Below, one piece after another: positions 37,449-40,154 of a DNA stretch of 42,022 nucleotides. The stretch is from Candidatus Thorarchaeota archaeon (lineage in GTDB: Archaea; Asgardarchaeota; Thorarchaeia; Thorarchaeales; Thorarchaeaceae). Location of the stretch: the NCBI GenBank assembly GCA_020348985.1, contig CP070761.1:2739387-2781408 (forward strand), given 5' to 3'. Numbering within the stretch: the first letter of the stretch is position 1; every line of letters begins with the position of its first letter. The notes beneath the pieces are model-generated. The model was not told where the DNA came from. It saw nothing but the letters and a program-made list of their open reading frames with translations, and made no database searches. The translations under genes were made by a program, and so were the position numbers.

Positions 37449-38450
37449 ATGTCCTCGGCAGACCCTCACACAGTTATCATAGGGGAGGGTGTAATAGGAG
37501 AAGTCGTCAATCTTCTGGCCGATTGCGAAAGCCCACTTCTTGTTACAGATGAACAAATCTACGGAAGATACGGGACAAGTGTAGATGAGCTTCTTGGCAC
37601 GAAAGATCGGTGGTTGATGGTATCAGACTATGAGAAGAAACGGTATTCTATGGCATATGGAACTGATATGATTCTGGGCTTTGGTGGAGGTCGCAGTATT
37701 GACGTTGCCAAGCTTCTTGCTAGAGATACTGGTCTCGACTGGATGGCAATCCCAACAGCAGCCTCTCATGATGGCATAGCCAGTGATGTGGCGTCGGTGA
37801 GTCAGAATGGATACAGATATTCTGTGAAATGCAAGAGTCCAAAGGCCGTAATAGCGGATTTATCAATCATAGCGGAAGCGCCACCGAGACTCAGGCTCGC
37901 TGGGATTGGTGATGTTGTTAGCAAGGCATCAAGCCTTGACGAGTGGCGCTTAGGGCACGAAACTCGTGGAGAGCCATTTGATGATGCTATCTTCTCTTTT
38001 GTCAACTCAGCCTTGAGTTCAGTTTTGAAAGACAATAGTCTTGACGCTTTGATCAAAGCACAGATTGACTGTGGGAAAGCGATGAGCCAGTTCGGCAGTT
38101 CAAGACCCTGTTCGGGAACTGAACATGCAATATCTCATGCATTGGATCGTGATCAGTTGGATCTTCATGGACTTCAGGTTGCGCTTGCTACACCTTTGTG
38201 TGTCTATTATCTGCATGGTAGTGGATATGCAAAATACAGAACGTCGGATCTTATCGGCTTCTTCAAAGAGACTAGAATACCTACACGACTCACAGATTTC
38301 GGCATAGGAAGAGAGAGGTTTCTGGACTCCATACGTCATGCGAAAGAGATTATGAAGAAAAGAGACAGATATTCTATACTTGAACACGTTGGTGCCTCAG
38401 ATTCTGATATAGTTGCGACCCTCATGGAGCTTTCAATGATTGATGGCTAG
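37449..38450 (+). CDS. egsA: sn-glycerol-1-phosphate dehydrogenase
   Basis: GGGRSIDVAK, PTAASHDGIAS, AGIGD, SSRPCSGTEHAISHALD, LHGLQVA. Confidence 0.88.
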   Translation: MSSADPHTVIIGEGVIGEVVNLLADCESPLLVTDEQIYGRYGTSVDELLGTKDRWLMVSDYEKKRYSMAYGTDMILGFGGGRSIDVAKLLARDTGLDWMAIPTAASHDGIASDVASVSQNGYRYSVKCKSPKAVIADLSIIAEAPPRLRLAGIGDVVSKASSLDEWRLGHETRGEPFDDAIFSFVNSALSSVLKDNSLDALIKAQIDCGKAMSQFGSSRPCSGTEHAISHALDRDQLDLHGLQVALATPLCVYYLHGSGYAKYRTSDLIGFFKETRIPTRLTDFGIGRERFLDSIRHAKEIMKKRDRYSILEHVGASDSDIVATLMELSMIDG

Positions 38451-38483
38451 TAACGCCATTCTAACCCAGACACTTCGACAGGC

Positions 38484-38490
38484 TTAAAAG
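38484..38490 (+). promoter_or_regulatory. TATA box of the rpl7ae operon
   Basis: TTAAAAG preceded by GACAGGC; implies a leader of about 90 nt. Confidence 0.5.
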
Positions 38491-38550
38491 AAAACTCCTA
38501 ACGACGCATGACTGCTCGCACTGTTACGAGTGTGAGTCTGTATTCATTGA

Positions 38551-38596
38551 TACCAATGAAATGAGACATGCTTCAGCATGTCAATGAAATGAGGTA
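38551..38596 (+). promoter_or_regulatory. Double K-turn in the rpl7ae 5' UTR overlapping the SD
   Basis: TACC-AAT-GA-AAT-GA-GACATGC-TTCA-GCATGTC-AAT-GA-AAT-GA-GGTA. Confidence 0.82.
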
Positions 38597-38603
38597 GAAA
38601 GAA

Positions 38604-38975
38604 GTGCCAAAACCATCTTTCGTTGAGTGGGAAGCTCCTGAAGAGCTCCAGAAGAAGGCCCTGGAGGCCCTTGAGATAGCCAAAGACACCGGCAGGATCA
38701 AGAAGGGAATAAACGAAGCGACCAAGAGTATCGAGCGGGGAATTGCACGCTTGGTAGTGGTTGCGGAAGACGTCGAACCTCCTGAGATAATCATGTATAT
38801 TCCAGGCCTATGCGACGACCGAAATGCTCCCTACATCTTTGTGAAGAGCAAGAGGGACTTGGGAAATGCAGCTGGGATTGAACGTCCGACCGCTGCAGTA
38901 GCGATTGTTGTCGATGGCAAGGCAAAGGACCTTGTAGATGACATTGTTGAGAAGATAGGCGGCCTCCGAAAGTAG
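38604..38975 (+). CDS. rpl7ae: Ribosomal protein L7Ae (eL8)
   Basis: IKKGINEATKSIERG, AEDVEPPEI, LGNAAGI. GTG start. Confidence 0.97.
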   Translation: MPKPSFVEWEAPEELQKKALEALEIAKDTGRIKKGINEATKSIERGIARLVVVAEDVEPPEIIMYIPGLCDDRNAPYIFVKSKRDLGNAAGIERPTAAVAIVVDGKAKDLVDDIVEKIGGLRK

Positions 38976-38995: not shown

Positions 38996-39226
38996 ATGAG
39001 CAAGAAAGAGGAAGAAGCTGAAACTCCAGCGATTCCAGCAGAGGTTATCCAGCTCCTAGGGCGGACCGGAGTAACGGGTGAAATCACCCAAGTACGTGTT
39101 AAGATTCTCGAAGGACGTGACAAAGGAAGAGTGCTTACTCGGAATGTCAAAGGGCCTGTAAGAGAACAAGATATTCTCATTCTTAGAGAAACTGAACGTG
39201 AAGCACGTAAGATGAGGAGGCGCTAG
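38996..39226 (+). CDS. rps28e: 30S ribosomal protein S28e
   Basis: [29 protein letters not shown]. Confidence 0.97.
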
Positions 39227-39228
39227 AC

Positions 39229-39429
39229 TTGGTTGGAACGCAAAGATGCGTTTTTTGCGGTAAGGACATTGAACCGGGAACCGGCTCAGCTTTTGTGCAG
39301 ACGAAGGATGGTTCTGTTCTTTGGTTCTGTTCAAGCAAGTGCAAGTCTGCAAACCTGAAACGCCGTATGAAGCCACGTGATACAAAATGGGCGGCAGCCT
39401 ATGAGAAAGGCGGCAAGACTAGACGCTGA
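39229..39429 (+). CDS. rpl24e: 50S ribosomal protein L24e
   Basis: CVFCGKDIEPGTG, FCSSKC, PRDTKW. Confidence 0.95.
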   Translation: MVGTQRCVFCGKDIEPGTGSAFVQTKDGSVLWFCSSKCKSANLKRRMKPRDTKWAAAYEKGGKTRR

Positions 39430-39479: not shown

Positions 39480-40154
39480 TTACTGTTTCTCAATCTCTTC
39501 TAACACAAATTCGTGAATGACCCTTGCAAGAGCCTCAATTTCTTGGTTCTCAATTCCGTTGGCATCTTTTCTAAGAAGATCAGTAAGTGATTCCAAAATC
39601 GTTTCAGACGTGTCTCGTTCTTCAATTGCATCTCTAACGATACTACGAATCTCCATTGTGAAATCCGTATCTCCCACGGCGTATCTCTCAATGTAATCAA
39701 GTGCATTAGAACCTGCGTCATCTGATTCGACGACACCTCCTTCACTTGTCCACAGGCGAATCTCCTCAGAGGCGGTTTCAGATGCATCCGATGCATGCGC
39801 TATGTTGACTCCAGCCCAGATACCGTACTTGCCTCTCAGGGTGGATGGTTCTGCTTTTTGCACAAAAGTAGAACCCAAGGCATCTCGAATACCCTGAATC
39901 ACATTCTCGGCTTGGAATATCAAAACTAGCACGGGAGCTGAAGTGATGAAGTCTACAAGCCATGAGAAGAATGGTTTTTCGCTGTGAACCGCATAGTGCA
40001 TCTCTGCCAAACGGCGGGTTACTCGCATTTCTTTGAAAGCTCGAACGCGGTATCCCCTTTCCAAAAGAGCCTTGATTACCAATGCACCGATTCTTCTTCT
40101 AACAGTGCCGTCGGGTTTTATGATTACGAATGAACGCTCCAATGACTTCACCAA
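39480..40154 (-). CDS. ndk: Nucleoside diphosphate kinase with an acidic C-terminal extension
   Basis: ERSFVIIKPDG, HYAVHSEKPFF, TLRGKYG, catalytic NIAHASD, then about 85 extra residues. Confidence 0.9.
   Translation of the reverse strand: MVKSLERSFVIIKPDGTVRRRIGALVIKALLERGYRVRAFKEMRVTRRLAEMHYAVHSEKPFFSWLVDFITSAPVLVLIFQAENVIQGIRDALGSTFVQKAEPSTLRGKYGIWAGVNIAHASDASETASEEIRLWTSEGGVVESDDAGSNALDYIERYAVGDTDFTMEIRSIVRDAIEERDTSETILESLTDLLRKDANGIENQEIEALARVIHEFVLEEIEKQ

What the first reader, a model, noticed from the sequence alone, without database searches (positions are those of the whole stretch)
38515..38603. Symmetric double K-turn switch occluding the L7Ae Shine-Dalgarno
Seen: CAATGAAATGAG occurs twice around the hairpin GACATGC-TTCA-GCATGTC. 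The fold gives two opposed K-turns, each with a C-stem, AAU bulge and tandem G-A/A-G pairs, sharing a 3-bp core. The outer C-stem TACC/GGTA and a GA pair use the SD (GAGGTA). Upstream TTCATTG (38543-38549) can instead pair with CAATGAA, breaking the K-turns and freeing the SD. A further hairpin CTCGCACT/AGTGTGAG precedes it. Established: L7Ae binds K-turns and autoregulates through its 5' UTR in archaea. Inference: a two-site, possibly cooperative ON/OFF translational switch for L7Ae-S28e-L24e.
Basis: partly seen in the sequence, partly recalled or inferred. Interest (0 to 1): 0.7.

Follow-up and report, generated by a model that had tools for sequence, protein, structure and literature searches.

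The report
Doubled kink-turn in L7Ae leader
The messenger RNA leader of ribosomal protein L7Ae in this Thorarchaeota-like Asgard archaeon carries the known self-regulating RNA kink that L7Ae binds. Uniquely among about 135 leaders examined, the kink is doubled into a mirror-image pair, and its function is untested.

Summary
The 12-mer CAATGAAATGAG occurs at 38554-65 and 38582-93, on either side of a perfect 7-bp hairpin. TACC/GGTA closes the element, and the 3' strand is the Shine-Dalgarno sequence GAGGU, 8 nt before the GTG start of L7Ae.

On paper this gives two inverted K-turns sharing a 7-pair non-canonical helix: four sheared G.A pairs, two A-U pairs and one A.A mismatch.

The outer K-turn is orthologous to a single K-turn hairpin found in all 84 other species genomes of the family and in 10 metagenomic relatives. 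That hairpin is the known L7Ae autoregulation device (Daume 2017; Huang, Ashraf and Lilley 2019).

The doubling, the loss of the otherwise invariant 4b-4n G-C pair and the GTG start are seen only in this genome. There is therefore no covariation support for the inner K-turn. A 40-leader sample of the wider phylum showed no other double. Two pattern scans for this genome's own form (GTDB genomes, JGI metagenomes) found it ahead of no other L7Ae gene.

The proposed anti-helix exists and is the predicted lowest-energy fold. However, it is not beyond chance given base composition (p about 0.1) and is not consistently conserved.

Verdict: a known kind of switch in a new, single-genome variant. Two-site cooperative binding is plausible but unproven.

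The scan had already noted a 'double kink-turn' L7Ae leader on other DNA (e1-2506843, unchecked).

The parts
38472..38489 (+). Promoter: conserved TTCGACAG block followed by a TATA box (GCTTAAAA, 38482-89)
   Evidence: The same block, TTCGACAGTTTTAAAAGA, sits at a fixed distance from P1 in nearly all 85 family leaders.
38511..38513 (+). Predicted transcription start (about 26 nt after the TATA centre). It aligns with the conserved AGA column of relatives.
   Evidence: Alignment. Inference from archaeal TATA-to-TSS spacing; not mapped experimentally.
38514..38537 (+). P1, a 5'-proximal hairpin (9 bp including G-U pairs; loop GUUACG)
   Evidence: RNAfold. A hairpin at the same place has different arm sequences in nearly all family leaders.
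38543..38549 (+). UUCAUUG, the 5' strand of the candidate anti-helix that pairs with CAAUGAA 38554-60
   Evidence: Part of the MFE. The isolated hairpin is -5.0 kcal/mol. Not significant against shuffles.
38551..38554 (+). Outer K-turn C-helix, 5' strand (UACC)
   Evidence: Pairs with GGUA 38593-96. The CC of this strand is present in all 85 family leaders.
38555..38564 (+). First AAUGAAAUGA strand: outer bulge AAU (55-57), outer G1b A2b (58-59), shared core AAU (60-62), inner G2n A1n (63-64)
   Evidence: Sequence. Formal scan.
38565..38582 (+). Inner hairpin GACAUGC-UUCA-GCAUGUC, the C-helix of the inner K-turn
   Evidence: -8.7 kcal/mol. Unique in the genome, so not a repeat element. Absent from all relatives.
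38583..38592 (+). Second AAUGAAAUGA strand: inner bulge AAU (83-85), inner G1b A2b (86-87), shared core AAU (88-90), outer G2n A1n (91-92)
   Evidence: Sequence.
38591..38596 (+). Shine-Dalgarno GAGGU(A). It overlaps outer 2n, 1n and the outer C-helix 3' strand (GGUA 38593-96).
   Evidence: The 16S 3' tail is GGAUCACCUCCU. The spacer to the GTG start is 8 nt.
38604..38975 (+). L7Ae gene with a GTG start. An in-frame TAG lies 2 codons upstream.
   Evidence: Pfam PF01248, E = 2.9e-27. All 94 family relatives start with ATG at the aligned codon.
38612..38625 (+). Coding-region complement (ACCAUCUUUCGUUG) of the second repeat plus the SD
   Evidence: MFE helix. Nucleotide sequence not conserved in relatives.
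38996..39429 (+). S28e and L24e genes of the same operon
   Evidence: Pfam PF01200 and PF01246. The intergenic gaps are 20 nt and 2 nt.

Best explanation
**What it is.** This is the translational autoregulation leader of the L7Ae-S28e-L24e operon.

**Ancestral part (high confidence).** UACC, an AAU bulge, tandem G.A/A.G pairs and GGUA form a standard K-turn. Its C-helix 3' strand and its 1n/2n nucleotides are the ribosome-binding site GAGGU. When free L7Ae is in excess it binds and folds the K-turn. This locks the SD into the C-helix and lowers initiation at the weak GTG start.

**Lineage-specific part (moderate confidence).**
- In this genome the short GNRA-type cap of the non-canonical helix has been replaced by about 21 extra nucleotides.
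- The insert repeats the bulged strand on the opposite side and adds a stable 7-bp hairpin.
- This creates a second, inverted K-turn joined to the first through a 7-pair non-canonical helix.
- The inner K-turn has a pre-formed C-helix and a C:G -1b:-1n pair, so it is most likely the better L7Ae site.
- Its occupation would build the shared helix, bring UACC next to GGUA and so favour the outer, SD-occluding K-turn. That would be two-site, possibly cooperative, repression.

**Protein-free state (inferred).** The 5' strand is predicted to sit in a competing hairpin with UUCAUUG.

**Shown versus inferred.** Shown: sequence anatomy, family conservation of the outer K-turn, promoter position and uniqueness of the doubling. 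Inferred: binding, stoichiometry, cooperativity and switching.
For: - **Gene identity.** L7Ae, S28e and L24e are confirmed by Pfam.
- **Conservation of the outer K-turn.** CC-RAU-GA-N-G..C-N-GA-GGU is present 8-12 nt before the start codon in all 85 family genomes across 16 genera. It is also present in 10 metagenomic relatives.
- **Variation consistent with K-turn rules.** 3b.3n varies (A.A, A-U, U-A, C.A, A.C, C.U, U.U) while the G.A pairs, CC and GG are invariant.
- **SD assignment.** The 16S tail matches GAGGU.
- **Transcribed leader.** The promoter, the predicted TSS and P1 are conserved upstream.
- **Published mechanism.**
  - L7Ae binds a K-turn in its own 5' UTR and represses translation (PMC5539422).
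  - The SD is incorporated into the C-helix in A. fulgidus, and every K-turn analysed folds on L7Ae addition (PMC6298567).
- **Precedent for two proteins on one unit.** Synthetic two-K-turn units joined through a common NC helix bind two L7Ae (PDB 5G4U and 5G4V; PMC5058347).
- **Rarity.** The formal double-K-turn pattern occurs once in 3.16 Mb, at this site.
- **Size constraint.** No other insertion has been tolerated in the K-turn cap in 94 relatives (cap plus NC is 10-12 nt in all).
- **Energetics.** The K-turn register is only about 3.4 kcal/mol above the anti-helix state before any G.A or protein energy is counted.
Against: - The inner K-turn is seen in one genome only. No covariation, population or transcript data exist.
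- The two 12-mers are identical and the hairpin is perfect. This fits a recent duplication as well as it fits selection.
- The ancestral 5' strand already carried GA at positions 9-10 (a GAGA loop). Copying it to the 3' side would therefore give a formal second K-turn automatically.
- The shared helix has 7 pairs, against 10 in the solved synthetic unit. Whether two kinks and two proteins fit is unknown.
- The invariant 4b-4n G-C pair is lost (A.A).
- An unkinked register (A56-U90, U57-A89, A61-U85, U62-A84) scores about the same (-26.2 against -25.9 kcal/mol). It would occlude the SD without any protein.
- Without protein the SD is predicted 0.91 paired to codons 3-8, so a clean ON state is not evident.
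- The anti-helix is not significant.
Confidence: 0.55

Rival explanations
1. Only the ancestral outer K-turn works. The 21-nt expansion is a recent, nearly neutral duplication or template-switch insertion in the variable cap of the NC helix. The 'inner K-turn' is a by-product with no regulatory role.
For: - The doubling is confined to one genome out of about 135 leaders examined.
- The repeats are 12/12 identical and the hairpin is perfect, which suggests a recent event.
- The ancestral strand AAUGAAGUGAGA already has GA at both positions. A copy on the other strand therefore makes a formal second K-turn without selection.
Against: - None of the 94 relatives tolerates any other insertion in this cap. 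Arbitrary insertions therefore appear to be selected against.
- A consensus K-turn with a stable 7-bp C-helix and a C:G -1b:-1n pair is expected to bind L7Ae, because every K-turn analysed folds on L7Ae addition (PMC6298567).
- The insertion co-occurs with a unique ATG-to-GTG change at the same gene.
Confidence: 0.3
2. The doubled element acts mainly without protein. It forms a stable unkinked hairpin, or the second repeat pairs with codons 3-8. Either keeps the SD paired and sets a constitutively low L7Ae output, reinforced by the GTG start. L7Ae feedback would then be weakened or lost.
For: - Register-ii hairpin: -26.2 kcal/mol.
- Conformer with the downstream helix: -35.1 kcal/mol, against -29.3 for the SD-free state.
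- The SD is 0.91 paired in the ensemble, against about 0.6 in most relatives.
- The invariant 4b-4n G-C pair is lost.
Against: - Nearest-neighbour models do not score G.A pairs or K-turn tertiary contacts.
- The same model also predicts SD pairing of about 0.6 in relatives through a 4-bp mini-hairpin, so these numbers are soft.
- All K-turn signature nucleotides of the outer site are intact.
- The downstream complement is not conserved.
Confidence: 0.1
3. The doubling is an assembly or sequencing artefact of this single-contig genome.
For: The doubling is seen in no other assembly. Pattern scans of GTDB genomes and JGI metagenomes found no second copy.
Against: - A structured 21-nt insertion with a novel 7-bp palindrome is not a typical long-read error.
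- The flanks and the reading frame are intact.
- The palindrome is not a repeat found elsewhere.
Confidence: 0.03
4. It is a box C/D-like small RNA overlapping the leader.
For: There are two K-turn-forming sites in one short RNA, as in C/D plus C'/D'.
Against: - There is no RUGAUGA or CUGA box.
- The two sites share one helix instead of being separated by ~12-nt guide spacers.
- Rfam found nothing.
- The position is fixed on the SD of l7ae.
Confidence: 0.01

Closest known systems
Archaeal l7ae 5'-UTR autoregulatory K-turn (Daume et al. 2017, PMC5539422; Huang, Ashraf and Lilley 2019, PMC6298567; A. fulgidus complex structure)
   Same: - It lies in the leader of the L7Ae gene.
- It is a standard K-turn: a 3-nt bulge plus tandem G.A/A.G pairs.
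- The SD is built into the C-helix.
- 3b:3n is a Watson-Crick pair (A-U), which under the published rules prevents ion-induced folding, so the fold should depend on the protein.
- S. acidocaldarius l7ae also has a GTG start.
   Different: - Published leaders have one K-turn. Here a second, inverted K-turn replaces the cap.
- -1b:-1n is C:G here, which none of the six published leaders has.
- The leader is long (about 93 nt), with a conserved 5' hairpin P1 and a possible competing hairpin. The A. fulgidus leader was reported as unstructured without protein.
Synthetic two-K-turn unit (Huang and Lilley 2016, PMC5058347; PDB 4CS1, and 5G4U/5G4V with two L7Ae)
   Same: - Two K-turns sit head-to-head with their bulges on opposite strands.
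- They are joined through a common NC helix.
- The arrangement has two-fold sequence symmetry.
- Each K-turn binds one L7Ae in the crystals.
   Different: - The synthetic unit is a bimolecular self-complementary duplex with 10 pairs between the loops. This one is a unimolecular hairpin with 7 pairs, including a central A.A on the dyad.
- This element is natural and sits on an SD.
- Its geometry has not been modelled.
Box C/D sRNA (C/D K-turn plus C'/D' K-loop, two L7Ae per RNA)
   Same: There are two L7Ae sites in one short RNA with pseudo-two-fold symmetry.
   Different: - There are no C/D box consensus sequences.
- There are no guide spacers.
- The two sites share one helix.
Engineered tandem K-turn/L7Ae translational OFF switches (Saito-type designs, for example PMC3105309 listed; tandem use recalled from memory)
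   Same: More than one K-turn in a 5' UTR could strengthen L7Ae-dependent repression.
   Different: The engineered sites are separate hairpins in series acting as roadblocks in eukaryotic mRNAs. They are not a fused symmetric pair occluding an SD.

Membership tests
L7Ae 5'-UTR autoregulatory K-turn | Located in the transcribed leader of the l7ae gene | tested here: met
   - The element ends 8 nt before the L7Ae start.
- A conserved TATA box places the predicted TSS at about 38511, upstream of the element.
- The TSS has not been mapped experimentally.
L7Ae 5'-UTR autoregulatory K-turn | K-turn consensus: C-helix, 3-nt bulge, tandem sheared G.A/A.G, NC helix | tested here: met
   - The outer K-turn reads UACC / AAU / GA ... 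GA / GGUA.
- The same signature is invariant in 94 relatives.
- This is sequence-level evidence only.
L7Ae 5'-UTR autoregulatory K-turn | Ribosome-binding site occluded in the folded state | tested here: met
   GAGGU (38591-95) comprises 2n, 1n and -1n to -3n of the outer K-turn. It is complementary to the 16S tail.
L7Ae 5'-UTR autoregulatory K-turn | K-turn not expected to fold without protein (3b:3n and -1b:-1n rules) | tested here: inconclusive
   3b:3n is A-U, and Watson-Crick pairs at this position prevent ion-induced folding. However, -1b:-1n is C:G, which favours folding (rules quoted).
L7Ae 5'-UTR autoregulatory K-turn | L7Ae binds the leader and represses translation | not testable with these tools
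   Needs EMSA or ITC, probing, and a reporter or toeprint assay.
Two-K-turn unit (Huang and Lilley 2016) | Two inverted K-turns on opposite strands joined by a common NC helix with a two-fold axis | tested here: met
   The drawing in the K-turn register and the formal scan. This is secondary-structure level only.
Two-K-turn unit (Huang and Lilley 2016) | Ten base pairs between the two loops (horse-shoe geometry) | tested here: not met
   Here there are 7 pairs between the loops (G58.A92 to A64.G86), against 10 in PDB 4CS1.
Two-K-turn unit (Huang and Lilley 2016) | One L7Ae per K-turn (2:1 complex) | not testable with these tools
   Shown for the synthetic unit. Not known for a 7-pair helix.
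Box C/D sRNA | C (RUGAUGA) and D (CUGA) boxes with ~12-nt guide spacers | tested here: not met
   The strands read AAUGAAAUGA. There is no CUGA and no spacers. There was no Rfam hit.

The most novel reading that the evidence does not exclude
[quoted passage not shown] The inner site would nucleate the shared helix and the outer site would close over the Shine-Dalgarno sequence, giving a steeper (ultrasensitive) autoregulatory response than the single-K-turn leaders of all relatives.
Probability: 0.3. Interest if true: 0.65.

Novelty: new variant of a known kind. Interest (0 to 1): 0.45.

Why it matters
L7Ae/K-turn pairs are the standard example of protein-sensing RNA switches in archaea. They are also a workhorse of synthetic translational control.

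- **For the field.** This work extends the SD-in-C-helix K-turn leader, with strong conservation, to a whole family of Asgard archaea (Thorarchaeota).
- **If the inner site is functional.** The doubled form would be the first natural counterpart of the Lilley laboratory's synthetic two-K-turn unit.
- **As a design.** It would be a compact (42-nt) natural design for two-site, possibly cooperative, protein-responsive repression.
- **As an experiment.** It allows a direct test of how K-turn spacing (7 against 10 pairs) affects double kinking and double occupancy.
- **If the inner site is not functional.** It is a neat example of how a duplication in a K-turn strand creates a second consensus site for free.

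Tried and rejected
- **Rfam.** A permissive cmscan of 38300-38800 gave only noise hits.
- **Mobile-element idea** (12-nt direct repeats as target-site duplication around a palindrome). Rejected, because the palindrome is unique in the genome.
- **Other doubled leaders: pattern scans.**
  - Scan of 185,579 species genomes: 114 stretches matched and 80 were listed. The seven listed archaeal hits were inspected and none precedes an L7Ae gene. The rest of those listed were bacterial.
  - Stricter scan of JGI metagenomes: 0 hits.
- **Other doubled leaders: leader survey.**
  - 85 family leaders, 40 leaders from other families of the phylum and 10 metagenomic loci all carry a single K-turn or other forms.
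- **Anti-helix test.** Per-sequence folds were heterogeneous. A longest-helix test against 2000 composition-preserving shuffles was not significant in any of the 22 representatives.
- **Downstream complement 38612-25.** Not conserved at the nucleotide level, so it is treated as genome-specific or chance.
- **A second K-turn in or around P1** (the conserved G-AGA motif). Rejected, because no matching GA lies on the 3' side. The motif fits the predicted initiator/TSS position instead.
- **RNAalifold on the whole-leader MAFFT alignment.** It recovered only the C-helix, because of length variation.
- **The look-up of encoding contigs.** The second contig that encodes the identical L7Ae (P0040) could not be fetched to check the assembly.

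Full report
**1. The observation**

- CAATGAAATGAG sits at 38554-65 and 38582-93. These are the only two copies in the window.
- The two copies lie on either side of the perfect hairpin GACATGC-TTCA-GCATGTC (38565-82).
- TACC (38551-54) and GGTA (38593-96) close the element.
- TTCATTG (38543-49) lies just upstream.
- CTCGCACT/AGTGTGAG forms a further hairpin at 38515-36.
- The ORF at 38604-38975 is L7Ae, followed by S28e and L24e (Pfam).
- The 16S rRNA tail of this genome is GGAUCACCUCCU. GAGGU at 38591-95, 8 nt before the start codon, is therefore the Shine-Dalgarno sequence.

In the K-turn register the two identical 10-nt strands AAUGAAAUGA pair as follows:
- G58.A92, A59.G91, A60-U90, A61.A89, U62-A88, G63.A87, A64.G86.
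- An AAU bulge sits on each strand.

This gives two inverted K-turns joined through one 7-pair non-canonical helix. The '3-bp core' is two A-U pairs and a central A.A, which lies on the dyad. Both K-turns have -1b:-1n = C:G and 3b:3n = A-U.

A formal scan for this architecture hits once in the 3.16-Mb genome, at this site. Shuffled genomes give 0-1 hits.

**2. What relatives show**

L7Ae was found in 85 of the 86 species genomes of the family, spanning 16 genera. By the names of the relatives' proteins, the family is Candidatus Thorarchaeota. I fetched all the leaders.

Every leader contains one K-turn hairpin 8-12 nt before the start codon.
- The form is (U)ACC, a RAU bulge, GA, a 2-3-pair NC stem with a 4-8-nt cap, GA, then GGUA.
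- A typical sequence is UACC-AAU-GA-AGU-GAGA-ACA-GA-GGUA.
- The G.A pairs, CC/GG and the 4b-4n G-C pair are invariant in the 84 relatives.
- 3b.3n varies freely (A.A, A-U, U-A, C.A, A.C, C.U, U.U), as expected for a K-turn.
- Ten further metagenomic family members are the same.

The outer K-turn of the window is therefore the ortholog of a strongly conserved element. The inner one is not.
- The window's genome alone carries the 42-nt doubled form.
- It alone has A.A at 4b.4n.
- It alone starts L7Ae with GTG instead of ATG.
- Even its two congeners have the single form (L002 at 94% protein identity, and L017).

**3. Search for other doubles**
- A pattern scan of one genome per GTDB species matched 114 stretches, of which 80 were listed. 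None of the seven listed archaeal hits lies ahead of an L7Ae gene, and the rest of those listed were bacterial.
- A stricter pattern in JGI metagenomes gave nothing.
- Forty leaders from other families of the phylum show K-turn-like leaders of other designs. Several have tandem GAUGA strands, but none has a symmetric double.
- The palindrome is unique in the genome, so it is not a repeat element.

**4. Leader anatomy**
- The block TTCGACAGTTTTAAAAGA is conserved upstream in nearly all leaders. Here the TATA box reads GCTTAAAA (38482-89).
- About 26 nt after the TATA centre lies a conserved AGA column, which is ACT here at 38511-13. I read this as the start site.
- Three nucleotides later, nearly every leader has a hairpin P1 whose arms differ between genera while pairing is kept.
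- P1 is therefore a real, conserved 5'-proximal stem.
- The whole K-turn element lies inside a roughly 93-nt 5' UTR.

**5. The switch idea**

RNAfold places UUCAUUG/CAAUGAA in the minimum-energy fold. Conformer energies at 37 C:

| Conformer | Energy (kcal/mol) |
|---|---|
| P1 + anti-helix + inner hairpin (SD free) | -29.3 |
| K-turn register (G.A pairs and protein not modelled) | -25.9 |
| Unkinked alternative register (A56-U90, U57-A89, A61-U85, U62-A84) | -26.2 |
| Conformer with the second repeat and SD paired to codons 3-8 (38612-25) | -35.1 |

A protein-driven switch is thus energetically reasonable.
- Without protein the SD is predicted 0.91 paired.
- The downstream complement is not conserved.
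- An unkinked hairpin could occlude the SD with no protein at all.

The anti-helix is also weakly supported.
- UUCAU(U) precedes ACC in several genera.
- In other genera a hairpin GUAUUCA...UGAAUAC overlaps the UAC of the C-helix instead.
- In the largest genus, pairing to the K-turn strand is weak and inconsistent.
- A longest-helix test against composition-preserving shuffles is not significant for any representative. It gives p about 0.10 for this genome.

**6. Comparison with what is known**
- Daume et al. (PMC5539422) showed that L7Ae binds a K-turn in its own 5' UTR and represses translation. They also showed that l7ae leaders from diverse archaea respond.
- Huang, Ashraf and Lilley (PMC6298567) showed that the A. 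fulgidus leader folds only on L7Ae binding, incorporating the SD into the C-helix. They also report that every K-turn analysed folds when L7Ae is added.
- The family-conserved outer K-turn meets every sequence-level criterion of this system.
- It differs in having -1b:-1n = C:G, which none of the six published leaders has.
- Neither paper describes a doubled K-turn.
- The nearest structural precedent is synthetic. The Lilley two-K-turn unit has two inverted K-turns joined through their NC helices, with 10 pairs between the loops. It was crystallised with two L7Ae bound (PMC5058347).
- Here the shared helix has 7 pairs, so the relative orientation of the arms and of the two proteins must differ. 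Fit is untested.

**7. How it most likely arose**

The ancestral 5' strand AAUGAAGUGAGA already has GA at positions 4-5 and 9-10, the latter inside the GAGA cap.
- Copying this strand to the 3' side, plus a short inverted duplication to make the hairpin, yields the symmetric form in one or two events.
- The central self-facing nucleotide is then necessarily a mismatch.
- The 12/12 identity and the perfect stem suggest a recent event.

This weakens any argument from design. Against pure neutrality, none of the 94 relatives has tolerated any other insertion in this cap. The same gene has also uniquely changed its start codon.

**8. Verdict**

The core is the known L7Ae autoregulatory K-turn. This is a new, well-conserved member in Thorarchaeota, with about 0.85 confidence that it works as published.

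The doubling is a real sequence feature and a new variant. It most likely offers a second L7Ae site that stabilises the repressed fold. It rests on a single genome and on drawing rules, so two-site cooperative control remains a hypothesis (about 0.3-0.4).

**Limits**
- There are no binding, probing, TSS or read-level data.

**Earlier scan notes (unchecked AI notes, not used as evidence)**
- A 'double kink-turn' rpl7ae leader was noted in another genome (e1-2506843).
- A K-turn with a competing hairpin was noted in Nanohalobium (e1-5226090).

Noticed in passing
window 38604-38606: L7Ae starts with GTG in this genome, whereas all 94 family relatives examined have ATG at the aligned codon. An in-frame TAG two codons upstream excludes a longer ORF.
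   Followed up: partly
window 38472-38537, and the aligned region of L002-L090: The family-wide l7ae promoter block is TTCGACAGTTTTAAAAGA. A conserved AGA lies about 26 nt after the TATA centre (probable TSS). A covarying 5'-proximal hairpin P1 starts 3 nt later. The role of P1 is unknown; mRNA stabilisation is one possibility.
   Followed up: partly
L237, L239, L246, L250, L260, L263, L265 (last ~60 nt before the L7Ae start): L7Ae leaders of other Asgard families carry two or three tandem (U)GAUGA strands before a short GC stem and GA-AGGAGG. These are repeated candidate bulged strands, a different way of multiplying K-turn strands.
   Followed up: no
window 38612-38625: Codons 3-8 of L7Ae (ACCAUCUUUCGUUG) are complementary to the second repeat plus the SD (38582-95). 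The predicted 13-bp interrupted helix encloses the start codon. The nucleotide sequence is not conserved in relatives.
   Followed up: partly
G002 contigs C288 and C13 (L002, L064): The congeneric bin G002 holds two L7Ae loci. One is 94% identical to the window's protein. The other is 89% identical and has a leader typical of another genus (g6). This suggests a mixed bin.
   Followed up: no
window 39480-40154 (- strand): The nucleoside diphosphate kinase is 224 aa. The NDK domain covers residues 6-137, and an acidic C-terminal extension of about 85 aa has no Pfam match.
   Followed up: no
protein P0040: A 123-aa L7Ae-cluster member, presumably this genome's own L7Ae (identity not checked), is on record on two contigs. 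One has the chromosome's exact length (3,157,342 bases). The other could serve as an independent check of the leader sequence, but could not be fetched.
   Followed up: no
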